Of a stretch of DNA of 64,000 nucleotides, positions 3,841 to 41,700 are shown piece by piece (position 1 is the stretch's first letter; each line of letters starts with the position of its first letter). The stretch comes from a virus: positions 62,029-126,028 of IMG/VR virus record IMGVR_UViG_3300020583_000010; one strand, 5' to 3'. The notes under the pieces are model-generated. The model was not told the DNA's origin. It searched no databases and was given only the letters and a program-made list of their open reading frames with translations. The position numbers and the translations under genes are program-made.

Positions 3841-4310
3841 TTGTTTTCCTTCTCTTGTCTAACTACGTCTCCTCGGTCATCTGTTCCTAGGCCGAGTCTT
3901 TCAAACTCCATCAGAGTATTAAGATGAAAAGCTGCATGCGCTAAGTGGTGCAGGCCTGACTCTTTATCCCACGTTTCTCCTGAGCGCCATAGATTTATAT
4001 GCCCCAATAAGGAACTAATACTGTATGACCAAGCATATCCTTTACGCCAGTTTTCAGCATCGTATTTTGCCGCTCCCTGGCCATAAGTTCTAGCAATTTC
4101 TGACTGTGGCCACACAGGCACCAATGAGTAGTGTTCAGGCTTAGTGCCCTTCTGACCTCCAGTAGACGGATCAGTGACTCTTACTTCAGCAGCTGCCCCA
4201 GATCGTGCTTCTCTGTTAAAGCCATCTTTCTTCTTTATTTGCTCTATACCATCTATCTTAAGAGAACTCAGTTGAGCTAGTACTCTATCTGACTCCCGCA
4301 TGTCGGGCAC
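3837..4310 (-). CDS. dATP/dGTP diphosphohydrolase-like (DUF5664) protein
   Basis: GGQKGTKPEHYSLVP, GAAKYDAENWRKG, DKESGLHHLAHA. Confidence 0.8.
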   Translation of the reverse strand: MPDMRESDRVLAQLSSLKIDGIEQIKKKDGFNREARSGAAAEVRVTDPSTGGQKGTKPEHYSLVPVWPQSEIARTYGQGAAKYDAENWRKGYAWSYSISSLLGHINLWRSGETWDKESGLHHLAHAAFHLNTLMEFERLGLGTDDRGDVVRQEKENK

Positions 4311-5215
4311 TCACCTAACTCTTCTAAAACCTGCTGTAAGTCTATTCCGGCTGAAGTTTCTGCACTTAAATACTCATTGCACTCATTGCTATACTTATGA
4401 CGTCTAGCGTATGCTGATTTTATACTAAGTGCTATAGCTTTAAAAGTCTTTAAATCATCATATGCGATAAGTAGACTATCAATTGAAACTTCTGGTAATA
4501 TACCTTTAATATTACCTAATTCTTCTAGTCTATCTTTAAGTACTTTAAGATCTTCTACCTCTGTTTCTAGCAACTGTACTTTCTTTAAGAGAGCATTTGC
4601 TTCCTTTAATGCTGCTGTTCTTATTTTTAAAGTTTCAATGCTAGTTAACTTGTCTGAAATCTCATCTAAGTCCTTATTTCTAAGCCTTAAGTCACTATTA
4701 GCCACTGTTCTACGTCTATTTGCTTTACGCACAGCCTCAAATATAGTTATTACACTAGTCAGTTCACCTAATGTACGGGCTACTTGGGCTCCAGGTGTAG
4801 TCAGTAAGAAAGGAGAGTCATGTTGACCTGCAAAGTTTATTGAACTTCCATCCCTGACTGGTGATATTCCTATTATAGATGTTACTTCTTCAGGAACATC
4901 ACCAGCTAATTTAGTGAACTCTCTATCTGTCTGGCCTGATTGAGTTATTCTATAACTAGATGAAGTGTCTGATTTCTCTAGGGTCACCTTATAAGTATCA
5001 GCTACAGCTGATACTGAAGCAGTCTTAAATCCCATAGTAATACAGGAAGAACCTCGTATGTTACTAGCCAGAGCCTGTATAGCTCTGACAGTCGCCGATT
5101 TTCCACAATTAGAATTTCCTACTATTACTGTTAAAAGTCCTAAGTCTAGATGCACATCTTTTAAAGACTGAAAGTTATGAATATCTATACTAGATAGCAT
5201 CTGTCTCACGATCAC
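4277..5215 (-). CDS. SbcC/Rad50-like ATPase, N-terminal half ending at zinc hook
   Basis: IHNFQS, Walker A GNSNCGKS, coiled coil, terminal CPTCG. Confidence 0.85.
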   Translation of the reverse strand: MIVRQMLSSIDIHNFQSLKDVHLDLGLLTVIVGNSNCGKSATVRAIQALASNIRGSSCITMGFKTASVSAVADTYKVTLEKSDTSSSYRITQSGQTDREFTKLAGDVPEEVTSIIGISPVRDGSSINFAGQHDSPFLLTTPGAQVARTLGELTSVITIFEAVRKANRRRTVANSDLRLRNKDLDEISDKLTSIETLKIRTAALKEANALLKKVQLLETEVEDLKVLKDRLEELGNIKGILPEVSIDSLLIAYDDLKTFKAIALSIKSAYARRHKYSNECNEYLSAETSAGIDLQQVLEELGECPTCGSQIEY

Positions 5216-6543: not shown

Positions 6544-7712
6544 CTGAAGTCTACCTTTCCAAGGTTGAATGGATCATCATCATCTTCATCAGTTTCTACT
6601 ACACTTGGGGCATTCTCTGATGATATTTTTATCAAGTCTACAGCATAGTCAATTACAAGTTGGCGCCACTCATTATGGCCATCTGCATACTGTAGCAATT
6701 TATCTTCCCCCTGAAAAGCTCCTGGCTTACCTGCCGACTCTGGCAGTCCTGGGAGAAGAAGTTCTGGAGTTTTACTGAAGTAATACCAAGCACCTGTCTT
6801 AGTTACTTTATTATGACTAAGCAGCACCTGCAATGCTGACCAAAAGTTATCAAACCCTTTGCCATATCTTACTTTAACTACGCAACTCTTTTTAGGTGTG
6901 CCTACTTTATTCTTAACCATAGTTACTTTAGTCTCTGTAGCTACACTAACCTCTTCCATTTCATTAGTTAGAGCATTGTATCTCTTACCTTTACTAGTTG
7001 AAATGGGAGCAAACTCAATACGAACGCTAGAGTAGAACTTGGGAGCAAAGCCTCCATTAGTTGTCTTAGTAGTCACTCTCACATAACCTGTTGGTATGCT
7101 TTCCTTCATATGATTAATTAAGATTAGAGTACAGTCATTTACAAACAGGGAATCTACTATTTGGCCTAGGAACTGTCCCATTACCCTAGCTTGGGCTGCT
7201 ACTTGTACCTGGCCAGTGTCAATCTCTAGAGTAGACTCCGGCTGAGCCTCTGCGACGGAGTCCCATATTACCAGTCTAATATGCCCAGTGCCTACTAGTT
7301 CTCTGGCTAAGTTCGCGCCTTTTTCTAAACTTCTAGGCTGTGTTACTATAACACTGTCATGAAGCAGGTCTAGGCCTAAAGAAGCACAGTAGTCCACATC
7401 TAGGGTGTGCTCATAGTCTATATATAGAATTCTATCTGTTGAGTCTTCTAAAATAATTTTCTGTTGTAAGGCAGCAGCAGTCTGAAGGGCCAGTGTCGTT
7501 TTACCACTAGAGGTTGGCCCATAGGCTTCTATTATACGACCCACTGGTAGGCCATCTACACCTACACTATGGTCAATTGACATGTTGCCTGTAGTAAGAC
7601 CTTTTACCTCATCTACCACGTCATCAAAGGTTCCCGCCTTTAGGCCTGCCTTTGAATACTTCTTAAGGATATCTGATATCTCAGAACGGCCTTCATTCTT
7701 TTTAACTGCCAC
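6540..7712 (-). CDS. recA: RecA-like recombinase
   Basis: GLPVGRIIEAYGPTSSGKTT, WDSVA, INH, GGFAPKFYSSVRI, VKNKVG. Confidence 0.95.
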   Translation of the reverse strand: MAVKKNEGRSEISDILKKYSKAGLKAGTFDDVVDEVKGLTTGNMSIDHSVGVDGLPVGRIIEAYGPTSSGKTTLALQTAAALQQKIILEDSTDRILYIDYEHTLDVDYCASLGLDLLHDSVIVTQPRSLEKGANLARELVGTGHIRLVIWDSVAEAQPESTLEIDTGQVQVAAQARVMGQFLGQIVDSLFVNDCTLILINHMKESIPTGYVRVTTKTTNGGFAPKFYSSVRIEFAPISTSKGKRYNALTNEMEEVSVATETKVTMVKNKVGTPKKSCVVKVRYGKGFDNFWSALQVLLSHNKVTKTGAWYYFSKTPELLLPGLPESAGKPGAFQGEDKLLQYADGHNEWRQLVIDYAVDLIKISSENAPSVVETDEDDDDPFNLGKVDFR

Positions 7713-30379: not shown

Positions 30380-30624
30380 CCGGAATTCTCCTTAAACAGC
30401 CTCAATCTACTCTAAGATCTCTTAATATATTCAACTCTCGACTCATACTACCATGTTTTTCGCATAAAAACAAGCCCTAATACCTAAAAATCATCATAAA
30501 ATACCCCAAAAATGACTAATATGGAGTATTTCTAGAAACATCAGTTCGGCTATTATAGAACAAATTCCTATTTAAATTCGGAGTGGAAGACAAAGTAATA
30601 GTCTTAGTGTCCTATAATCGAACA

Positions 30625-31166
30625 TTAAAGGTTATTATATTCAACATCTGTGATATGCACTAGCCTATCCGATCCGTACGCCCCGGTCTGCCCGCTTTCA
30701 AATCTGACATGATACTTATTCGAACTGCTATTCCACGCCAGAACGGAACAAACAACTCCCGGCAGTCCCGCATTTTCATCATAGGCAAAAGCATGCTTGA
30801 CTCTTACAACGTCTCCTACCTTAAACTTGTCTTCTGCCTGCGGGTTCACCAGATCTTTCGGCATAATCGAGACCGGCTTGACCTCTTGGTCCTTGCTCAG
30901 TGCCTCTTTGCTGTGCCTTTTAAGCTCATCCGCTGAGTCCATCCATACAACCCAGTCCAACTTATCGTTATTGCTCCTGTCGAACACACCATACCAGCCA
31001 GCCTCGAACGGCTCCGGGAATTCCTCAACCTCGGCTCCGAGCGGCAGGGTAACCCATGTTCCGGAGTAGTCGTACCATCCTTTGCACCCCCCGGCAACCG
31101 CACGTGTATAACACCATCAACCCCTTGTGTAAGATCAACTTCAAAGCTCACTCTATATCTAGTCAT
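30625..31166 (-). pseudogene. frameshifted gene (5' part from ATG 31166, 3' part in -1 frame ending 30625)
   Basis: The frame of the 30625-30987 ORF stays open upstream (GWYDYSGTWVTLPLGAEVEEFPEPFEAGWY) with no ATG/GTG/TTG start; G6 run at 31087-31092. Confidence 0.55.
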
Positions 31167-31172
31167 ACTGCC

Positions 31173-31201
31173 AACCTACCATACACACCTCTATCTGTCA
31201 A
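31173..31201 (-). promoter_or_regulatory. leaderless promoter
   Basis: TTGACA-N17-TAGGTT, ATG 7 nt downstream. Confidence 0.65.
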
Positions 31202-31639
31202 CCCACAATAAGTGCAGGTCAGCGGCCTTGTTTCAAGGGAATCGAAGATCAATTTGAAAATCACTCCGGCGGCTAAAACCGCCCCATATCAGCACCCTGC
31301 GTCACGCGACTAGCCCCGCCCCCGCCATGCGACGCAGCACACGCATCTACGCACACGCATATCAGTCATCGAATCTCAAAGCAATGCACTGATAGGCATC
31401 CCAAGAGCCGGCAGAGTATTGACATCCACATATCAGTCATCGATCACATAGCCGGCAGACCTTTTACATATGAAATCTGAGAGCCTAGCAGACCCTCAGG
31501 TAGTATCCTTATACCAGAGCCCTGTGTTAGGCTCTCTACGATCAACACAGAAGAACAGGAACAGGCATCTCAGCACAGTGCGTTGATGTCAGTGATGTGT
31601 ATTGATGTATGTACACTGTTGTGGTTAGGAGACTTGACT

Positions 31640-31694
31640 ACTGTGTGTAGTGTTGAACTGGTTACTGTGTGTAGTGTTGAACTGGCTACTGTGT
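31640..31694 (+). repeat. tandem repeat actgtgtgtagtgttgaactgg(tt/ct), ~2.3 copies
   Basis: Directly visible, 24-bp period. Confidence 0.85.
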
Positions 31695-32204
31695 AGGCTG
31701 CCGTGTTTCATCCGGCCTGTGGTATGCCGTGTGCCGTACAGGTCTGCTCATCCCCTGTGTGTGTGGTGAACGACTGTATACCCTGGTACAGCCAGAGGTA
31801 CATGCTGTGTGTAGTATGGATCAGTGTGCTGTGGCAGTGCTCTGTGTGACAGCGTGTCGGTCTGGTACGGTGTGCCCTGTATAGGATCTGTCTGCGTGTC
31901 AGCCGTGTGCCGTATCCTGATATCAGTGTGGCTGTATGCCGGTACTGCCGGCGCATGGCTGCTCATCCGGTTCGGATATTCGCGTGTCTTGATACAGGAT
32001 GGATACTGCTGTGCGGGGTCGCTTATACCACGTCTGGGCATGCTTGGAGTACCTTGGTACCTGAGTATGCCGCATGGCGGGGATGTATGCATGAGGTCTC
32101 GGGTATAGTCGCAGGCGGAGCTCATCCGTGTTTCTCGAAATGGATTTATATTCATAGTGCCCGGGGGTTGCGCCGCCGTGGGGCAGTAGTAACGTAGTGA
32201 GTGA

Positions 32205-32672
32205 AGCAAGAGGCATTCGAACCGACAGGGAACCACCGGCTCAGCCGGACAGGCCAAGGATCGAATCCCCCGCTTAGGTCACCGGAAGCCTTGTCAACCG
32301 GGAAGCATCATCCTAAAGGGGTGATGGAACCGCGCGGGTCAGCATCGAACGAAGCGCCGCACGGCACGCAGTGAAGGCAGGGATCAGCAGGGTTCCGGGG
32401 TGAAACTCCCTGGTGCGTTAGGAGCGACCGGCTTAGACGCCAACGGCTCTGGGGACGTGAGACGGTCTGCCTTGTATTACAGCCACGAACGGGAACGTTG
32501 ATCGGTCCGACTCCGATCCGTGGCGCGGGGCGATCGCAGTGAAGGACGCGGGTAAGAAAAGTGATGCCGCCGGGAGGCCTTGAAGCATCAGCCCAGCGGC
32601 CTTCAATGCGAAGCTCAAGGGACGCTGTGAAGGCGAGGCGGTTGGGTCCGTCCGCCGAAGCGGCGTCCCGCA
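32205..32672 (+). ncRNA. candidate large structured ncRNA upstream of tRNA-Glu
   Basis: Dense helices, GNRA-capped hairpins, T-loop-like element, no credible ORF. Confidence 0.65.
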
Positions 32673-32677
32673 TCAAA

Positions 32678-32750
32678 GTCCCTATGGTGCAGCGGCCTAG
32701 CACGCAAGACTTTCAATCTTGTGACGTCGGTTCGAATCCGACTAGGGGTG
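32678..32750 (+). tRNA. tRNA-Glu(TTC)
   Basis: CAAGA-CTTTCAA-TCTTG anticodon arm, GTCGG-TTCGAAT-CCGAC T arm. Confidence 0.92.
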
Positions 32751-32828
32751 CGGGACTGGCAACACGACCATCGATGCGCGGACCGTGAGAACGGATTTTG
32801 CGAACTTCACAGGCGTTCAGTCCTTTTT

Positions 32829-32899
32829 GCGGCTGTAACTCAATGGCAGAGTATCTGACTTCCAATCAGACTATGCGGGTTCGATTCCCGTCAGCCACT
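32829..32899 (+). tRNA. tRNA-Gly(TCC)
   Basis: TCTGA-CTTCCAA-TCAGA, GCGGG-TTCGATT-CCCGT; one acceptor mismatch. Confidence 0.9.
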
Positions 32900-32940
32900 C
32901 GTAGGAAGTGCCGCACAACTCACCTAGGGAGTCAGAAACT

Positions 32941-33153
32941 ATGAGCGAGTTCTACATGTCCGGCCGTTCCAACCGTGAAGAGTACGGCATGCGCGGAACA
33001 GATTGGGTGGAAGAGTACACGCGGATGATCAACGGGACCGAGTACGAGTTCTCGCGTGTCACGTGGGGAGACGGCGCTGTCACCGTTCGCGCGTGGATCG
33101 TGGGCGGTTCGGCCTACTACCCGATCCATCAGTGGGGACGTCAGGTCTCCTAG
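32941..33153 (+). CDS. hypothetical protein
   Basis: GGGAG RBS, strong GC3 bias. Confidence 0.65.
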   Translation: MSEFYMSGRSNREEYGMRGTDWVEEYTRMINGTEYEFSRVTWGDGAVTVRAWIVGGSAYYPIHQWGRQVS

Positions 33154-33242
33154 CAGCAAGCCTCTAGGGTCAAGCTTCACAGCAGCGCCTAGAGGCACTT
33201 CAAAGGCTCCAATCAGGTGCCTTGAAACAGAAAGGCAATACC

Positions 33243-33371
33243 ATGCGGCGTTATCAGGGCGAGTCGGTTCAGGTGGTCAACGAGACCACCTATCGCGGCG
33301 TCCGCGTTCTCTGCGTCATGTTCAGCGACGGCATGGCCGAGTGGGTTCCCGCCAGCGAGGTGACCAAGTGA
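33243..33371 (+). CDS. 42-aa hypothetical protein (not in ORF track)
   Basis: GAAAGG RBS; MRRYQGESVQVVNETTYRG..; GTGA overlap with next gene. Confidence 0.55.
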   Translation: MRRYQGESVQVVNETTYRGVRVLCVMFSDGMAEWVPASEVTK

Positions 33372-33556
33372 CCGGCCTTACCGTAGCCGATCGCTGCGAC
33401 GCCTGTAGCGCGCAAGCGCTGGTCGCTTTCAGCCGTAGCGCCGGACAGGGCCGTCTCGACCTCTGCGGCCATCACGCGCGTCGGTTCGGCGCCAAAATGG
33501 CCGAACAGGGATTCACCATCGCCGAGGATCACAGAGAGAGCGTGGTGGCGCGATGA
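33368..33556 (+). CDS. small actinobacterial-type Zn-binding protein (DRCDxC..CxHH)
   Basis: LTVADRCDACSAQA..LDLCGHHARR. Confidence 0.7.
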   Translation: MTGLTVADRCDACSAQALVAFSRSAGQGRLDLCGHHARRFGAKMAEQGFTIAEDHRESVVAR

Positions 33557-33720
33557 CGCGCGTCATCGCCATAGGCGTGGCGTGCGCCGTATTCGCCTCT
33601 CTCGCCATCGCTGGCATCCTGGCCCTGTCCGTGAGTCAGGCTGACCGGCCTTCCAATCCGTGTGCAGTCATCGGCATGAGTCACTGCGGCTCTGTCGGCA
33701 ACAAGTAGGGAGTCTGTTTC

Positions 33721-33888
33721 ATGAACCGTTTCCAGAAAGTCCGCATGGGCGCGGGTTGGGCCGTGTGGGACCGTGATACCAACCATTTCGTCGCTGATGC
33801 GTCCTACGGCAACGAGTACATGGCCGACGCCAAGGTAGAAGTCCTGAACCGCAAGCACGAAGAGCAGAGCATGAACAGCCATGCATAA
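33721..33888 (+). CDS. 55-aa hypothetical protein (not in ORF track)
   Basis: GGGAG RBS; MNRFQKVRMGAGWAVWDRDTN..LNRKH. Confidence 0.6.
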   Translation: MNRFQKVRMGAGWAVWDRDTNHFVADASYGNEYMADAKVEVLNRKHEEQSMNSHA

Positions 33889-34044
33889 GGCTCATAACCT
33901 CTACCACACCGTCAAGGACGCACGTACGTACCGTTCCCGCGTCCGCGCCTACAGAGGTGATGACACGAGCGTTCTTCGGCCACTCAGCGTCCCCGATCGC
34001 ATTATGTGGTTCCTGGTCGACTTGGTGTCCTAGGCGTCACAACC

Positions 34045-34086
34045 GAGCCCCGCATCTTGGCCTCGCGGTCAGGATGCGGGGCTTTT
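34045..34086 (+). terminator. intrinsic terminator
   Basis: gagccccgcatcttg..caggatgcggggc followed by tttt. Confidence 0.8.
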
Positions 34087-34192
34087 CCATGCCCTGACCT
34101 ATATCAGGGCACTGAGCCGGCAGACAGGGCACTCTAAGGCTCTCGACCGTCGCCCGGGTATGGTCATACGCGGAGATGCCCGGGAACGTGAG

Positions 34193-34227
34193 AGAGCCGC
34201 CCATCGTGCCGAGTGATGGGCGGCTCT
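34193..34227 (-). terminator. hairpin downstream of DUF3631 gene
   Basis: 13-bp perfect stem agagccgcccatc/gatgggcggctct. Confidence 0.65.
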
Positions 34228-34312
34228 GTCTCTAGGCTCGCTGTGTAACATGACCGGGGGTGTAACACGGACTGGCGTGTAACACGCTTCCAACGTGCGA
34301 TGCCCGATTTGC

Positions 34313-35470
34313 CTACTGACCAGTGCTTTCGACATCGTCACTTGCCGTAACCGACCAGTGACTCTCGAAATCGTCCCGCTTGAAGCCTCGCGAGACCTTG
34401 TCGCCCACGCGGACCGGAGTCGCTGCGAGCCTGTAAGGAGCGGTAGAGAGCAGCGTGGTCAGTTCCCTCGGCGCCACACCAGCGTTCGGCCAGATGGTCT
34501 CCCATCCCGCGTTGAGCGCATAAAGTCCTTCCACCATGGCGACGGTGGTCATTTTCTCCCTACCGGAGAATACGGTCTCAAGATCAGCGACCAGACGCAT
34601 GGTGAGGGACTCGGGGGATTCCGTACTCTGACCGGTGGACAGTTCCCTGCAAGCCTTTGCGCAGCGCTCAGGCCACGATCCGCCAGCGACGTTTGCGATT
34701 TGAAACAGTGGTTCCCAGACTTCGGCGAGACGGTCCTCTATACCGGCGGGAAGTTCCGGCCAGTTCTCAGTGATCGAACCGAGATTGAACCCGACCCACT
34801 TGCCGAGGTCCGCATTGATCGCTCGCGCCATGCCGTCATGCAGCCGACTGCGGTACTTCTCACCCTTACCCTTGGCTTGCTTCATACGGCTAATGATGCA
34901 CCGCGAGCGAACAGCCGCGAGCGCTTCGGCGGACTGGAATACACGGCCTAGGCCAGCCATGGCCATGGGACCGAAGATGTCTTGTTCAATCTGCTTTGCG
35001 CGCATGACGGTCGCACCCTTGCGGTAGCCTGAGTTGATGACCGACCGCACAATGGATTTGGCCTCGCCCTTGCCGAACAGGATGTCTACCTCGTCAATCA
35101 GGATGACTTTGCGCATTTCGGAGATTCCGGCGACCAGAGCGGCGGGAGTGGGATCGGTGGTGACCTGTCCGTTGCGCCCGATCAGACGCAACATGTCCAG
35201 AGCGAGAGTCTTGCCGCTGGCAGGTTCGTCCGAGATGAAAGCCAGGCGCGGGGAAGAGTCAAACAGCAACTTTCCCTCCCCATCCACCGCATGCGTGTGC
35301 GCAGCCCAGAGTGTCATCACGTCGCGGATTGCGTCCCCGGCAATGAGAAAGCGCGACATGAACTCATGCGCCGTGTCTAGAGCCTGTCCGTTGTAGGGAA
35401 CCTGAGCTGTCACCTCTACCGTCTCGGCTTTGAACGTACCCTGTGACGTTCGAGCCTTCACACCTGCCAT
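34313..35470 (-). CDS. P-loop NTPase with DUF3631-like C-terminal domain
   Basis: EPASGKT, ILIDEVD, INSGYRKG, EDRLAEVWEPLFQIANVAGGSWPER. Confidence 0.8.
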   Translation of the reverse strand: MAGVKARTSQGTFKAETVEVTAQVPYNGQALDTAHEFMSRFLIAGDAIRDVMTLWAAHTHAVDGEGKLLFDSSPRLAFISDEPASGKTLALDMLRLIGRNGQVTTDPTPAALVAGISEMRKVILIDEVDILFGKGEAKSIVRSVINSGYRKGATVMRAKQIEQDIFGPMAMAGLGRVFQSAEALAAVRSRCIISRMKQAKGKGEKYRSRLHDGMARAINADLGKWVGFNLGSITENWPELPAGIEDRLAEVWEPLFQIANVAGGSWPERCAKACRELSTGQSTESPESLTMRLVADLETVFSGREKMTTVAMVEGLYALNAGWETIWPNAGVAPRELTTLLSTAPYRLAATPVRVGDKVSRGFKRDDFESHWSVTASDDVESTGQ

Positions 35471-35530
35471 ATCAATACCCTTTCTCGTGTCCTGACACTC
35501 GGCATGCCAGGTACCCCGATCTTCTCACAG

Positions 35531-35561
35531 AAAAACCCCGCCTGTCAAGACAGGCGGGGTT
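35531..35561 (-). terminator. intrinsic terminator containing TTGACA
   Basis: aaccccgcctgtc-aa-gacaggcggggtt with T-run on minus strand. Confidence 0.75.
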
Positions 35562-35575
35562 AATCATAGTCGCTG

Positions 35576-36700
35576 CTACGCGTTCGCGAGCACGGCGCCC
35601 AGCGTGGTGAGCGCGTTGCGGTCGTTCTCACCCATCTTGCCCGAAATCACGTTCTGCATTACGCGATCCTGGCGCGCCGTCTTGCGGATCGTGGCAACGT
35701 GCGTGTTGTACGTGTTGACCGCCTGAAGCACTCCGAGAGCGGTGTTCTTCCACGGCGACACGCGGTCGTCATGGAGCCACAGCTCGGACAGGCTCTCACG
35801 GTGCTTCTCAGCGACCGTCTTGCCCCGTCCCTCTTCAGTCGGAACCGGGGCGTGAGCGTCGAGGAACTGGGCCCACTGGGCATCGGTCACGGTCTGCTCA
35901 GTCAGAGCCTTGACTTCCGCAGCGAAGTCATCCGCCGCAGCATAGATGATGGCCAGCGCGTCACGCGCCTCATCCAACTTCAAGCCGCTGTTCTTCGTGT
36001 GCCTCAGCTTGAAGGACTGGTCGCGCTCGGACTGCGCCATTTCCAGGGTATTATCGCAAACCACTGCTTGGATCTTACGGCCGTACTGCGTTGCGACAGT
36101 GCCGTCGAAAGAGGTGGTCGCGAGCAAGAATGGCCGGAAGTCGAATCCCTCGACGGTCTTGACCGTGTCTTCCATCTCAACCTGAACCCATGCCACAGCG
36201 CCGCCCTTCAGGAGGCCAGCGCTGCCGATCGCGAGTTCACCGGCTCCGGTGTCGAGGATGGAACCGACGTTGTTGATCAGCCACTCCTGATAGCCGTGAC
36301 CCTGATAGCCGTCGCTGAAGATGCCCATGACGTGACCGGTGTCGCTGCGCTTCCACGCGGTCTTGTTGGGCACGGGCACGAAGTCCGCATCGACGTACAC
36401 GGGCGAGGGAACCGCGTCCCAAGCGAACAGACGCCCTCGCACGGTCTCTACGGGAAGATGATACCACGCTTCCCCCCGCTTGTTGGGCACGGGCACGAGG
36501 TCCTCACCGTTGTACGCATCGACGTACACGCGCGAGGGAACCGCGTCCCAATCGAACAGACGCTCTCGCACGGTCTCTACGGGGATGGCGCCCGGAAAGT
36601 GGTTGTCGGTGCCCTCGCGGTGGTGCCACGCATTACCGCGCTTGTCGGTGTAGCCCACAAGCGTGTTCTCATTGAGCCAAGTGAGGCTTTCCTTGGACAT
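35576..36700 (-). CDS. DUF932-family protein with internal duplication
   Basis: AWH, SAGLLKGG, LLATTSFDGT, VVCDNTL; duplicated PVETVR..PVPNK block. Confidence 0.85.
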   Translation of the reverse strand: MSKESLTWLNENTLVGYTDKRGNAWHHREGTDNHFPGAIPVETVRERLFDWDAVPSRVYVDAYNGEDLVPVPNKRGEAWYHLPVETVRGRLFAWDAVPSPVYVDADFVPVPNKTAWKRSDTGHVMGIFSDGYQGHGYQEWLINNVGSILDTGAGELAIGSAGLLKGGAVAWVQVEMEDTVKTVEGFDFRPFLLATTSFDGTVATQYGRKIQAVVCDNTLEMAQSERDQSFKLRHTKNSGLKLDEARDALAIIYAAADDFAAEVKALTEQTVTDAQWAQFLDAHAPVPTEEGRGKTVAEKHRESLSELWLHDDRVSPWKNTALGVLQAVNTYNTHVATIRKTARQDRVMQNVISGKMGENDRNALTTLGAVLANA

Positions 36701-38794: not shown

Positions 38795-41700
38795 ATGCTT
38801 AAAATGAACCGCTCTAAGCGCTACAGTCCCGGCTACGAAGCACTCATGGAAGAGGTAAGGCTAACTTGGGACCCGCACGATCCGTTCGCCTCAGGCTGCG
38901 AATGGCGGTTTGCACTCACGGAAGTCCTCCACTTCGATCACGGAGAGCACGTCCCAGATTACAGCCCCGGCGCTGTCACTGAGCCGGAGGCGCACAGCTA
39001 CGCGGTAGAAGCTGTACGTGACCTTCTCAAGTATCATGAAACGACCACGGAGGATCTTCGCGCAGTGCTCGGCGTGCTCAACCGTCACCGTGAATGGCTT
39101 CGGATACTCGGAAGGGACTACTAGGATGACATCATTCGTCCGTTGCCTGAAGTGCCGCAAGCGTGTTATTCTCGGTAGAGAGAACTTCGTAGGCACATCG
39201 AACGGTTACTATCACTCGGCTTGTATGCCGTGGCCGCCCAAGACTGAGGAGAGCTGATTATGGAGCTTAAGGAAAACCACCGACGCGCTCTGCGCTACGT
39301 CGCTAAGAACCACGTTCATGTATCCAATAATGGCACCAGCGACTCGCGAGCCGTCTCCGGTCCCGCAGTGAAGGAGCTCACCCGCGCAGGTCTCCTAGCC
39401 AAGAATGGAGCCGCTTGGCGGTTCGTCGGTGGAAGGCGCTACCGGCGTCTGGTTGTCACTCAAGCCGGGTTCGACCTGCTCACCTCGAAGTAAGAAAGGA
39501 CTACTTATCAACCTGCTCAAGAAACACGACAAGTGGATGAGCAGAGTGAGCAGAAAGAAGAACTGTTGCAACTACTGATAGATGTACTTTGTGTTGTCAT
39601 CCCTGTAGGCATCATAGGGCCTTTCATGTGGTTTAATGGAAGCACTAGGAAAGCCAACATTAAGAAAAGGAATTCATCATGATGCTTCGAGTCACCTATG
39701 AGAGGCTCCATAATGACTGACATCGTAGAAGTCGGAACCCTGGTCCTGTACCACGGACCCAATAAACTCTACCATGGCCTAGCTTTCGTCTCTCGTAAGA
39801 TCAGTGGTTACGATTCTGATTCCTACGTGCTCGTTCCCTTCGTGTTCGATGAGGGTGAAGTGGTAGGGGTTAACAGTGGTAGCATCGACACTGATCGCCA
39901 GAACTTCACGACGGTACAGCTGCCGGAGGTCCCTGTGGAAGAGAAGCCCGGTTACTACTGCTCTTCTAGCCACTACTTCTACCGACACGACCCCAGCGCG
40001 GATGACGAGTGGATTTACTGGAGTAATCTGAGGGCAGAGTGGTCTAGGCCTGATCACATCACCAAGCTCACTCCTGCTGAACGCCAGAAAGAGCTCACCT
40101 ATCTTGGAGGTCTGTAAGCTATGCCTCTCACTTCTGCTCAAGCTCGCAAAGTTCAGGCTTTGAGCTACGGTCAAGGCCGAATCGATCAGTCGCTCAGTGC
40201 TATTCCCTACACAGTTGAGGTTCCGCAATACATAAAGGATCTACCCCGCTATTTCGCTGAGTGGGTAGAGAAGTCTGCTCCTTGGGCAATGATCGACTCC
40301 TTCATGTGGGACGCATTCATAGAGAACTACGAACCGCCCAACACGAGAGGGTGAGGTAATCATGACTGAGATGTACCTACCGTGTGGCTGCTACCACGCT
40401 GGTCATTCTATTCCTTGCCAAACTCGTTCCATCAACAGCGAGTTTGCTGGCAAGTTCCCAGGTGACACGGAGAAGTCTCTCGCTGTCAAGGCTGCTAAGC
40501 TCGCTGTACTCCGGCTTAAGGAAAGGGTTTAGTCATGACCGAATCTGTCACCACTCCCATGCTGGATAAGCTCAGCGCCGAGAAGTACAAGACCGAGATC
40601 ATACATGAGTTTCTTGAGTTCTGTGAGGAACATAGTGTGTATCTTGCAACCTTCCATACAGGCACGAGCAACGGCTTCTACCATCCTGCTACGCAACGAG
40701 CAACGGATCTGTTGATGGCTAAGTTCATCGGAGTCGACATGAACATTGTTGAGCAGGAAGGAAGCGAATGCCTAAGCTGATCATCGAGTCTCAGCCGGAC
40801 TATGGTTTCTCTCGCATCGAACGTGAAGTCGACAGTCTGGATGATGCCTGGAAGACGATTCTAGCTGATCTGGAATTGTCCAGGGTCACTCCTGACTTCG
40901 CTGCCGAGGTGGGTTACGAATTCGGGCGCCACACCCTAGCTTGGAAAGAGTACGGTCGGAGCCTTGGCGAGCAAGACATGCCAGGAGCAAACCACAACGG
41001 CTTCACTTTCACTATAGAGGACGGTCCTGAAATGTTCATTGTCTTCACCTACGAGGAAGACAATGCTTGAGGTAGACGAGGGTAAGCAGAAAGACTTAGC
41101 CCTAGGAGAGATTAGCATGGTACGTTCAAGCCGCAAGATAGATTTGTCTAGACGGCAGGATAAGATGTGTGGCAATAAACGGCCGTACGCCACTCGTGAG
41201 GCTGCTCTCAGTGCCGTGGAAGACCTGGAAAGCCGAACAGGCGACGTGAATAGAATGGTAGTATACAAGTGCCATTATTGCGATCAATTTCATTTCGGCC
41301 ACCTGCCGGGTAGCAAGCGTCTAAAGAAGTAGGGATTAAATGTCTGAGAACACAGCAGTACTGCTCGTTCAAGACTGGACTACAGTCTGCTCACGGTGCC
41401 TCTACCAGGTCTTGCCAGAGGCCAAGACACATGTTAGGATTGCAGGCTACGGACCTCCAGCTAACGGGTGCGGAGCACTCTTCACTGGAATCGCGTCAGC
41501 GGAACCAGGAAAGTTCAACGATGCCAGGCTGCATGAGATGCGCCCCGATCTGAAAGTGGTTAGACTGTAATGGACCCTAATGAAGTTCTCAGACTCATGC
41601 GCAGCTCTGCAAAGCGCATTCACGCCATGCTGCTGCTAGATGACAATGAGGCAGTTACTCTAGCCGACGCTGTTGAGGCTATGGATGACTGGCTTCGCAA

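What the first reader, a model, noticed from the sequence alone, without database searches (positions are those of the whole stretch)
32205..32672. Candidate novel large (~470 nt) structured ncRNA heading a tRNA transcript
Seen: nearly continuous pairing after a possible promoter (TTGCGC..TAACGT, ~32168-32195) and ending 5 nt before tRNA-Glu. Helices: gacaggg/ccttgtc enclosing ccggc/gccgg and a T-loop-like gg-atcgaat-cc; catcatcc/gggtgatg; ggaacc(32326)/ggttcc(32391) crossed by aaggcag(32374)/ctgcctt(32467), a possible pseudoknot; ccgggg-tgaaact-ccctgg; gccacg/cgtggc with aacg-GGAA-cgtt and gatcgg/ccgatc; tgatgc/gcatca with gcc-GGGA-ggc; gggacgctg/cggcgtccc with ggcgg/ccgcc. GTGAAGG recurs three times. 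Known: GOLLD and ROOL are large phage RNAs found beside tRNAs, but I recognise no signature of those, tmRNA, RNase P or group I/II introns. Inference: a new or highly diverged large-RNA class whose 3' end is made by tRNA processing.
Basis: partly seen in the sequence, partly recalled or inferred. Interest (0 to 1): 0.82.

Follow-up and report, generated by a model that had tools for sequence, protein, structure and literature searches.

The report
Structured phage early-leader RNA with conserved core
The stretch is the long, non-coding, hairpin-rich leader of a soil phage's early transcript; only a short element near its start is shared with three otherwise unrelated phages, and that element looks like a new RNA control signal rather than a new giant RNA.

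Summary
The stretch is non-coding and matches no Rfam family.

The ~470 nt are not conserved as a unit. What is conserved is a promoter-proximal core:
- a 29-nt element (32277-32305);
- directly after it, a hairpin (32306-32326) in which 8 of 8 pairs show compensatory changes;
- then GAACC and a second, variable hairpin.

This core occurs once per genome in four lineages of uncultivated soil viruses that share almost no proteins. In the relatives it heads leaders of 248-411 nt without tRNAs.

In the window, folding stability beyond chance is strand-specific (z -3.2 sense, -0.2 antisense). It comes from the 3' 200 nt (z -5.0); the middle 150 nt fold no better than shuffles.

Best reading: a structured early-operon leader whose conserved core acts on the nascent transcript in a put/nut-like way. 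That function is inferred, not shown. The 3' extension and the two tRNAs are specific to this lineage.

The closest positional analogue is the ~500-nt Pleft RNA of mycobacteriophage L5, with no homology.

The scan noted this same stretch before in another window of the same genome, not on other DNA.

The parts
32168..32195 (+). Weak promoter-like site, TTGCGC, 16-nt spacer, TAACGT. The transcript start is inferred at about 32202.
   Evidence: Read. Not called by the consensus scan. In two of the three relative lineages a TTGACA-16/17-TAnnnT-type site scoring 10 of 12 lies at the corresponding place. L014 has TTGACA-16-TAGGTT, which the scan also did not call.
32203..32276 (+). Variable 5' domain. 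It holds the hairpin ccggc-tca-gccgg (32237-32249) and a predicted long-range helix attcga/tcgaat. Its length differs between lineages: 37 to 104 nt lie between the inferred start and the core.
   Evidence: MFE folds of the four leaders. z -1.0 for 32203-32330. Not alignable between lineages.
32277..32305 (+). Conserved 29-nt element, GGTCACCGGAAGCCnnGTCAACCGGGAAG. 27 of 29 positions are identical in 4 lineages. It contains two similar half-sites, ACCGG(G)AAGC. No conserved Watson-Crick partner was found in cis.
   Evidence: One copy in the 126-kb genome even at 6 mismatches. No 6-mer of it has a complement in all four leaders.
32306..32326 (+). Hairpin P2: 8 bp (32306-32313 with 32319-32326) and a 5-nt loop, TAAAG here and GAAAG in two relatives. 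L015 carries about 50 extra nt with two hairpins in the loop.
   Evidence: Alignment A2. 8 of 8 pairs have changes on both sides, 93.8% of cells are paired, 0 of 500 shuffles reach this, and slid controls give 22-58% paired.
32327..32396 (+). GAACC linker and a tentative second helix P3 (gaacc 32327-32331 with ggttc 32391-32395). In each lineage a helix starts within the ACC of this linker, but its sequence and size differ.
   Evidence: P3 is in the MFE in 3 of 4 leaders (win, L014, L015) and ambiguous in L016. Not alignable, so it is not counted. z -1.4 for 32277-32400.
32397..32477 (+). Middle segment, including ccgggg-tgaaact-ccctgg. Nothing supports structure here beyond chance.
   Evidence: z +1.5 for 32327-32480. 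Local windows run from -0.8 to +1.7.
32478..32677 (+). Lineage-specific 3' domain with three well-defined modules:
- D1, 32482-32524: a Y-shaped pair of hairpins closed by gccacg/cgtggc.
- D2, 32528-32616: a long irregular hairpin.
- D3, 32619-32669: gggacgctg/cggcgtccc enclosing ggcgg/ccgcc.
   Evidence: MFE -101.4 kcal/mol, z -5.02, 0 of 200 shuffles as stable, MFE frequency 0.107. A 151-nt contig of a soil metatranscriptome run is identical to 32450-32600.
32599..32610 (+). gccttcaatgcg, a strand that can pair with any of the three CGCWGTGAAGG copies (32367, 32535, 32623). Pairing with the third copy would open the base of D3, so this is a possible alternative-pairing switch. That is inference from one sequence.
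   Evidence: Inverted repeats I15 and I23 and direct-repeat family D4. In the MFE it pairs with the copy at 32535.
32678..32751 (+). tRNA-Glu (UUC), 8 nt after D3. RNase P cleavage at its 5' end would define the leader's 3' end; this follows from established tRNA processing and is not shown here.
   Evidence: ARAGORN. Rfam tRNA 62.7 bits.
32829..32900 (+). tRNA-Gly (UCC).
   Evidence: 65.8 bits.
32941..33153 (+). First protein gene of the unit, 70 aa, no known family. Homologues of 67-75% identity exist.
   Evidence: RNA-run contigs are identical at 32997-33151.

Best explanation
The stretch is the non-coding 5' leader, about 475 nt, of a rightward early-type transcription unit. That unit sits in a 126-kb uncultivated soil virus that probably infects Actinobacteria.

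The leader has two layers.

1. A conserved promoter-proximal core of about 50-120 nt: a 29-nt sequence kept almost letter for letter, then directly a covarying hairpin with a (G/U)AAAG loop, then GAACC and a second, variable hairpin. The same core heads the leaders of three other virus lineages that share almost no genes with this one. It is therefore a portable RNA signal under strong selection.

2. A lineage-specific extension: a poorly structured middle and a very stable 200-nt 3' domain. It runs into tRNA-Glu and tRNA-Gly. RNase P cleavage of the precursor would release the leader as a discrete RNA ending at 32677.

The 29-mer has no conserved pairing partner in cis and is invariant across phages of different composition. 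I therefore infer that a conserved host component recognises it on the nascent transcript. The most likely mechanism is modification of the elongating RNA polymerase, that is anti-pausing or antitermination in the manner of HK022 put or lambda nut. This would let the polymerase run through the hairpin-rich leader and the tRNA genes into the early genes.

Shown: non-coding status, conservation, hairpin covariation, strand-specific stability, position and orientation.

Inferred: the transcription start, co-transcription with the tRNAs, the RNase P-made 3' end, and the whole functional mechanism. I put the put/nut-like function itself at about 0.3.
For: No known family: Rfam gave only tRNAs at gathering score over the window, and nothing credible at E<=10 in 31800-33000. 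The relatives' loci also gave 0 Rfam matches at E<=1.

Non-coding: the 5 overlapping ORFs have no Pfam hit and a best PHROG E of 0.094. L015 carries a ~50-nt insertion inside the hairpin loop.

Conservation:
- L014 was found independently, through the downstream 70-aa gene (67% identity). It shares a 31-nt stretch at 96.8% identity about 200 nt upstream of that gene and nothing else of the leader.
- A 24-base pattern found 5 viral stretches, which are 3 lineages.
- With model R1 the members score 72-92 bits, one strong copy in each of 5 records. Four other pattern hits score 20-22 bits and lack the hairpin.

Hairpin P2: 8 of 8 pairs have compensatory changes, and 0 of 500 shuffles reach this.

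The lineages are barely related. At E<=1e-8, 5, 7 and 2 of the 390 G000 ORFs match G002, G004 and G001. GC ranges from 46% to 62%.

Context: in the oriented loci of all 4 lineages the core lies on the + strand, with small + strand ORFs listed downstream. It sits 37-104 nt after a promoter-like site. The scan called that site at 10 of 12 in 2 lineages.

Structure: leader z-scores, sense versus antisense, are -3.2/-0.2 (window), -5.3/-2.6 (L014), -6.6/-3.4 (L015) and -0.9/-1.3 (L016). The 3' domain has z -5.0.

Weak sign of RNA: a soil metatranscriptome run holds identical contigs at 32450-32600, 32785-32935 and three places in the downstream genes.

Analogy: put RNAs are about 70 nt, consist of two stem-loops, and lie just downstream of the early promoters (PMC9378689, passages read).
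Against: - Function is not shown by any search.
- Terminator-like sites are not enriched downstream of the core in the relatives: 4, 3 and 2 found against 2.2, 2.0 and 3.2 expected. So nothing shows a need for antitermination.
- The window's own promoter is weak and was not called. MAFFT aligned window and L014 differently from my promoter alignment. The start of the RNA is therefore uncertain.
- There are only four lineages. Three were found by exact-match patterns, so the near-invariance of 24 of the 29 positions is partly by construction, and diverged members would have been missed.
- L016's leader is not more stable than shuffles.
- There is one copy per genome, whereas lambdoid phages have two nut or put sites.
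- The RNA-run contigs are unstranded, of depth about 2, and could be DNA carry-over.
- The 3' 350 nt have no relative, so their structure rests on thermodynamics of a single sequence.
Confidence: 0.5

Rival explanations
1. A stable, abundant, trans-acting early non-coding RNA. The leader is the product rather than a control region. [quoted passage not shown]
For: The position, size and lack of ORFs match the Pleft RNA. That RNA is a ~500-nt non-coding region right after the early promoter, the most abundant early transcript, processed to 100-400-nt species and toxic to the host (PMC5712189: abstract, passages and section 11 read). The 29-mer is apparently single-stranded and flanked by hairpins, as sRNA seed regions are. 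The very stable 3' domain and a tRNA-defined 3' end would favour accumulation.
Against: No homology to the L5 region: R1 best 3 bits, nhmmer none, blastn only 9-17-nt chance matches. In the three relatives the leader runs straight into a ribosome-binding site and gene with no tRNA, which fits a cis role at least as well. No complementary target turned up in 185,579 species genomes at the 20-base exact level; shorter seeds were not tested.
Confidence: 0.2
2. One reading: one large (~470 nt) autonomous structured RNA of a new class, comparable to GOLLD or ROOL, defined by its whole fold and by a tRNA-made 3' end.
For: The whole stretch has z -3.0 to -3.2 on the sense strand only. It lies next to tRNAs. 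It matches no known family.
Against: The unit is not conserved: relatives keep only the core and have no tRNAs. The middle third folds worse than shuffles. No homologue of the 3' 350 nt was found in cultured phages, or by nhmmer in the 12 related or pattern-hit viral loci held at that point and in L014. GOLLD and ROOL models did not match.
Confidence: 0.1
3. A metabolite- or signal-sensing riboswitch or attenuator. The core is an aptamer. In this phage the three GTGAAGG copies plus their shared complementary strand form the switchable expression platform in front of hairpin D3.
For: Invariant nucleotides next to covarying helices are typical of aptamers. One strand (32599-32610) can pair with three alternative partners, one of which overlaps the base of D3.
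Against: No bacterial copy among 185,579 species: the single pattern hit is not a member. D3 has no U-tract and the scan called no + strand terminator. The putative platform is absent from the relatives. The 29-mer shows no conserved pairing that would close a pocket.
Confidence: 0.1
4. A DNA-level site rather than an RNA: an operator or stoperator for a repressor, or part of a replication origin next to the 1-kb repeat-rich non-coding region upstream.
For: A 29-bp invariant block next to a repeat-rich, strand-asymmetric non-coding region in the window, with a similarly large non-coding region in L014.
Against: It occurs once per genome, not as a dispersed repeat. Its distance to the promoter varies (37-104 nt) while its distance to the covarying hairpin is fixed. 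Compensatory changes in P2 point to a single-stranded nucleic-acid structure. In G004 it lies in a short intergenic gap after a nuclease gene, with no origin-like region.
Confidence: 0.05

Closest known systems
Early lytic (Pleft) non-coding RNA of Cluster A mycobacteriophages L5, D29 and StarStuff (PMC5712189)
   Same: A ~500-nt region without ORFs directly downstream of the early promoter and before the first early gene of an actinophage. In L5 it is transcribed early and processed into smaller species. Its function is unknown.
   Different: No sequence or model similarity. The L5 RNA ends where about 90% of transcripts terminate, not at a tRNA. Abundance and stability are measured for L5 and unknown here. 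The paper's supplementary alignment could not be seen.
HK022 put RNAs (PMC9378689)
   Same: A cis-acting element of the nascent early transcript, close to the early promoter, of about 70 nt, with two stem-loops. A protein-independent action on a conserved host enzyme would explain near-invariant nucleotides across unrelated phages.
   Different: Here a long unpaired conserved block precedes the hairpins. There is one copy per genome rather than two. The hosts are probably Actinobacteria, not Escherichia. Binding to RNA polymerase is entirely untested.
Lambda-type nut sites: a linear boxA followed by the boxB hairpin (features recalled, except boxA binding by NusB:NusE, seen in the abstract of PMC2800207 in the listing)
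   Same: Architecture: a conserved linear element, followed a few nucleotides later by a short hairpin with a purine-rich five-base loop, near the start of an early operon.
   Different: The linear element here is 29 nt, more than twice the length I recall for boxA. The hairpin stem is 7-8 bp and varies between phages. No N-like arginine-rich protein was sought or found. There is a single copy.
GOLLD and ROOL large phage-associated RNAs (Rfam models; PMC12286853 seen as listing and abstract start only)
   Same: Large non-coding RNA in a phage genome, next to tRNA genes.
   Different: No match to either model. Shorter. Not conserved over its length. The middle part is not significantly structured.

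Membership tests
Any Rfam 15 family (GOLLD, ROOL, raiA, OLE, tmRNA, RNase P, group I/II introns, riboswitches, 6S, SRP, 5S) | A covariance-model match at or near the family's gathering score | tested here: not met
   Over the window only tRNAs pass gathering. At E<=10 in 31800-33000 the only match inside the stretch is Scr1601, 13.5 bits against a gathering score of 100, on the minus strand. The relatives' loci give 0 matches at E<=1.
tRNA, tRNA pseudogene or tRNA-like element | Cloverleaf detected by ARAGORN or the Rfam tRNA model, or sequence similarity to the phage's own tRNAs | tested here: not met
   ARAGORN finds nothing in 32196-32677 at its default or 90% threshold. At 80% it gives one weak Asp-like call on the minus strand, 32201-32276. 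Local alignment of three segments, both strands, against the genome's 25 tRNAs does not exceed 100 shuffles; the best score, 24, equals the shuffle maximum.
Cluster A mycobacteriophage Pleft ncRNA | Sequence or structure homology to the L5 right-end region | tested here: not met
   R1 with filters off gives at best 3 bits (E 0.38). nhmmer finds no hit. blastn finds only 9-17-nt matches at E>=1.1.
Cluster A mycobacteriophage Pleft ncRNA | An ORF-free region of several hundred nt between the early promoter and the first early gene | tested here: met
   About 475 nt lie between the promoter-like site and tRNA-Glu, with no credible ORF. The relatives' leaders are 248-411 nt.
Cluster A mycobacteriophage Pleft ncRNA | Highly abundant, stable, processed transcript early in infection | not testable with these tools
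   Only unstranded contigs of depth about 2 from one metatranscriptome run.
HK022 put | A ~70-nt element of two stem-loops just downstream of an early promoter | tested here: inconclusive
   P2 is shown by covariation. A second helix follows in the MFE of 3 of 4 leaders but could not be aligned. The distance to promoter-like sites is 37-104 nt. The 29-nt unpaired block has no counterpart in the put description read.
HK022 put | Binds RNA polymerase (beta-prime zinc-binding domain) and suppresses pausing and termination without protein factors | not testable with these tools
   Needs in vitro transcription or genetics.
Lambda-type nut site | A linear conserved box followed by a short hairpin with a purine-rich pentaloop | tested here: met
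   The 29-nt block is followed directly by a 7-8-bp hairpin with loop GAAAG (L014, L016) or TAAAG (window). L015 keeps GAAAG at the 3' side of an enlarged loop. This shows resemblance of architecture only.
Lambda-type nut site | A cognate arginine-rich antiterminator protein, and a site in each early operon | not tested
   No search for an N-like protein was made. Only one copy per genome was found.
Riboswitch | The same aptamer present in bacterial genomes upstream of metabolic or transport genes | tested here: not met
   A 20-base exact pattern over 185,579 species genomes gave 1 stretch. It lacks the hairpin and scores 22.5 bits. Diverged copies would be missed.
Stoperator-type dispersed repressor sites | Many copies of the site through the genome | tested here: not met
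   One copy in 126 kb at up to 6 mismatches. A 14-base sub-pattern with 3 mismatches gives 6 matches against 3.5 expected.

The most novel reading that the evidence does not exclude
The 29-nt block plus its two hairpins is a new, protein-independent RNA that binds and reprograms actinobacterial RNA polymerase, a put-like element outside the lambdoid phages. It would be portable between unrelated soil phages. In this phage it drives read-through of a switchable 3' domain (three alternative GTGAAGG pairings) and two tRNA genes, so that one promoter yields a stable leader RNA, tRNAs and early mRNA.
Probability: 0.15. Interest if true: 0.8.

Novelty: new variant of a known kind. Interest (0 to 1): 0.45.

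Why it matters
Long non-coding early leaders are known in actinophages (L5, D29), but their function is unknown and no conserved signal has been defined in them.

This locus offers a compact, testable signal of about 60 nt. It is a 27-of-29 invariant block with a covarying hairpin, shared by phages that otherwise have almost nothing in common.

If it acts on RNA polymerase, it would extend RNA-only antitermination beyond HK022-type phages to high-GC Gram-positive hosts, and would give a portable read-through part for Streptomyces or Mycobacterium engineering. If it does not, it is still a new RNA motif for the catalogues.

The claim of a new giant RNA class should be dropped unless closer relatives show full-length conservation.

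Tried and rejected
It gave 2 stretches, L012 and L013. Both are repeats inside apparent protein-coding repeats, collagen-like and leucine-rich-like by eye, with no tRNAs and no nhmmer similarity. Rejected.

2. Relatives sought through neighbouring proteins.
- DUF932 gave 10 loci at 38-45% identity. None showed nhmmer similarity to the RNA. None had an R1 match better than 10.6 bits in their 10 whole records.
- DUF3631 gave none.

3. Relaxed patterns added L021, L024, L025 and L026. All score 20-22 bits, lack P2 and look coding or lack a promoter. Not members. A weak second R1 match in G003 and G004 (10 bits) lies inside a gene shared with G000. Rejected.

4. Cultured phages. A blastn of 851 nt hit only the tRNA parts, in 16 records. 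The 61-nt core gave only a 19-nt chance match in phage Tonenili.

5. Degenerate or inverted tRNA origin: see the membership test. The 12-nt perfect complementarity between 32215-32226 and the T-arm of tRNA-Glu stays unexplained.

6. Cis partner for the 29-mer. None is shared by all four leaders; only P2 came out of that search.

7. Terminator enrichment downstream of the core: none.

8. Shared RNA-binding protein among the four phages. The only proteins shared by three genomes are a lysin-type glycoside hydrolase domain and endonuclease VII.

9. Cover in the RNA run. No contig of run X3 lies left of 32436 or over 32601-32784. This is not used as evidence.

10. I recalled a likeness of the two ACCGG(G)AAGC half-sites to part of 5S or SRP RNA. 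The Rfam scan at E<=10 gave no such match, and I could not fetch an actinobacterial 5S RNA. Dropped.

A profile search for the same gene in viral contigs found only the L014 contig again. So the contigs of P0002 and P0003 stayed out of reach.

13. Paper searches.
- Searches for GOLLD/ROOL/phage tRNA, for actinobacteriophage leader ncRNA and for Pleft ncRNA found no description of this motif.
- A search for put antitermination found none either.
- These are word searches and cannot find a sequence motif.
- Supplementary files were not opened; the put alignments and the D29 right-end alignment may bear on the comparison.
Full report
**What is there.** The window is the right half of a 126,028-base IMG/VR virus record judged 94% complete.
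- The record carries 25 tRNA genes.
- It also carries an Rpf-type transglycosylase, a lysin-type Rv2525c-like domain, and DUF3631, DUF932 and DUF7455 genes. These fit a phage of Actinobacteria; the host is inferred, not known.
- The stretch 32196-32677 lies between a ~1-kb repeat-rich non-coding region and tRNA-Glu at 32678-32751.
- After tRNA-Glu come tRNA-Gly at 32829-32900 and a 70-aa gene at 32941-33153.
- The five ORFs that overlap the stretch or its upstream flank have no Pfam hit. Their only PHROG hit is E 0.094, on 31748-32257(-).
- Rfam 15 finds only the tRNAs at gathering score, and nothing credible at E<=10.

**The observation.**
- All the listed helices can be read.
- The 11-mer CGCWGTGAAGG occurs three times in the stretch and once more at 39364. 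That is more than in any of 100 shuffles.
- The whole stretch folds with z -3.0, 0 of 100 shuffles. In my own shuffles it is -3.2 on the sense strand against -0.2 on the antisense strand.
- The signal is uneven. 32478-32677 has z -5.0 with a well-defined ensemble. 32203-32330 has z -1.0, and 32327-32480 has z +1.5.
- So 'nearly continuous pairing' is more than chance only for the 3' 200 nt, and by comparative evidence for one 5' hairpin. The proposed pseudoknot lies in the part that folds no better than shuffles.
- The promoter TTGCGC-16-TAACGT is present but weak. The scan did not call it.

**Relatives.**
- Nothing in cultured phages resembles the RNA.
- The downstream 70-aa gene led to one viral contig, L014, at 67% identity. 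It has no tRNA.
- L014's leader shares one 31-nt stretch at 96.8% identity, equal to window 32276-32306, and nothing else.
- A pattern from that stretch found five viral stretches. A looser pattern found four metagenome stretches and one genome stretch.
- After removing duplicates of the same virus there are four lineages: the window; G001 (L014); G002 (L015, L018, L022; 44 kb, complete, with terminal repeats); and G003/G004 (L016, L017, L023; G004 is 66 kb and complete).
- Two further relaxed patterns added only non-members.
- Because three lineages were found by exact matching, the invariance of the matched positions is partly by construction. What the patterns did not fix is described next.

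**The conserved core.**
- In all four lineages the 29-mer is followed at once by a hairpin whose sequence differs between lineages but whose pairing is kept. 8 of 8 pairs show changes on both sides, 93.8% of cells are paired, 0 of 500 shuffles reach this, and slid controls give 22-58% paired.
- The loop is GAAAG in two lineages and TAAAG in the window. L015 keeps GAAAG at the 3' side of a loop enlarged by about 50 nt with two extra hairpins.
- After the hairpin comes (G)AACC, and a further helix begins within it. That helix is in the MFE in 3 of 4 leaders.
- The core lies 37-104 nt after a promoter-like site. The scan calls that site at 10 of 12 in two lineages.
- In the oriented loci the core is on the + strand, with small + strand ORFs downstream.
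- It occurs once per genome.
- The four viruses are barely related. At E<=1e-8, 5, 7 and 2 of the 390 G000 ORFs match G002, G004 and G001, and GC runs from 46% to 62%.
- No 6-mer of the 29-mer has a complement in all four leaders. The block is therefore probably read as a single strand by a partner in trans.
Its two variable positions do not covary with the proposed partner (by eye).

**The rest of the leader.**
- The relatives' leaders are 248, 268 and 411 nt. Two of the three are much more stable than shuffles, more so on the sense strand. None shares the window's 3' 350 nt.
- In the window the 3' domain consists of three modules, D1 to D3.
- The strand at 32599-32610 can pair with any of the three GTGAAGG copies, and pairing with the third would open D3. 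This suggests a switch, but it rests on one sequence.
- A soil metatranscriptome run holds contigs identical to 32450-32600, to the tRNA-Gly region and to three places in the downstream genes. The contigs are unstranded and shallow, so this is only a hint of transcription.

**How it most likely works.**
- Shown: a non-coding, strand-specifically structured leader with a conserved, covarying 5' core at the head of an early-type operon.
- From established tRNA processing: if the tRNAs are co-transcribed, RNase P cuts at 32678 and frees the leader.
- Inferred: the core is recognised on the nascent RNA by a conserved host component. The most plausible one is RNA polymerase, with or without Nus-type factors, which would change elongation.
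- The model is HK022 put: about 70 nt, two stem-loops, close to the early promoters, acting without proteins (PMC9378689, passages read). It also has the box-plus-hairpin layout of lambda nut sites (recalled).
- I found no enrichment of terminators to support this.
- The main rival is that the leader itself is the product. That is the case for the ~500-nt Pleft RNA of L5, D29 and StarStuff, which is early, very abundant, processed and toxic to the host (PMC5712189; abstract, passages and section 11 read). That RNA is a positional analogue only: neither R1, nhmmer nor blastn links the two.

**Verdict.**
- The finding is real as a non-coding structured RNA region, and it led to a new conserved RNA motif. 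It is not supported as a ~470-nt RNA class.
- Novelty: a new variant of a known kind, the phage early-leader RNA element.
- Interest is moderate. The motif is compact and testable, but it is known from four uncultivated lineages only, and its function is inferred.
That material is the contigs of the 75% and 69% identical homologues of the downstream gene.

Noticed in passing
window 31200-32130: About 1 kb without credible ORFs. It is C/A-rich on the left and G/T-rich on the right, with the skew switching near 31500. It holds two tandem 24-mers (31642-31689) with two degenerate copies, a 15-mer repeated at 31358 and 31429, and scattered inverted matches. L014 has a similarly large non-coding region upstream of its promoter (4254-5090). 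It could be an origin or a divergent control region.
   Followed up: partly
window about 31000-36700: A high-GC block (0.52-0.66) inside a genome of 46.4% GC. The flanks at 30400-30700 and after 36700 are 0.36-0.42. The block holds the leader, both tRNAs, the 70-aa gene and the DUF7455, DUF3631 and DUF932 genes. It looks like a mosaic module acquired from a high-GC phage.
   Followed up: partly
window 32215-32226 and 32726-32737: A 12-nt perfect complementarity between the 5' domain of the leader and the T-arm of tRNA-Glu in the same presumed precursor (I8). Its score equals the best of 100 shuffles. It could be a relic of a tRNA fragment or a pairing that affects tRNA maturation.
   Followed up: partly
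window 32678-32751 and 32829-32900; genome C1:569-641 and 6993-7065: The two tRNAs behind the leader (Glu-UUC, Gly-UCC) have the same anticodons as tRNAs in the large tRNA cluster at the other end of the genome.
   Followed up: no
I did not examine it.
   Followed up: no
L016 and L017, about 320-400 nt after the core: After the first small ORF of that operon lies a stretch with a T-arm-like gggttcgattcccgg and an acceptor-like ggcacg/cgtgcc closure. Neither ARAGORN nor Rfam at E<=1 calls it a tRNA. It may be a tRNA-like processing signal.
   Followed up: partly
window 39364-39374: A fourth exact copy of CGCAGTGAAGG on the + strand, outside the leader. Its flanks do not resemble the other three.
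   Followed up: partly
L014 5096-5602: In L014 the whole leader is open in frame with the downstream 67-aa gene, a 168-aa ORF from a TTG inside the -35 box. Given the covarying hairpin and the lack of this frame in the other lineages, I take it as chance in GC-rich DNA.
   Followed up: partly
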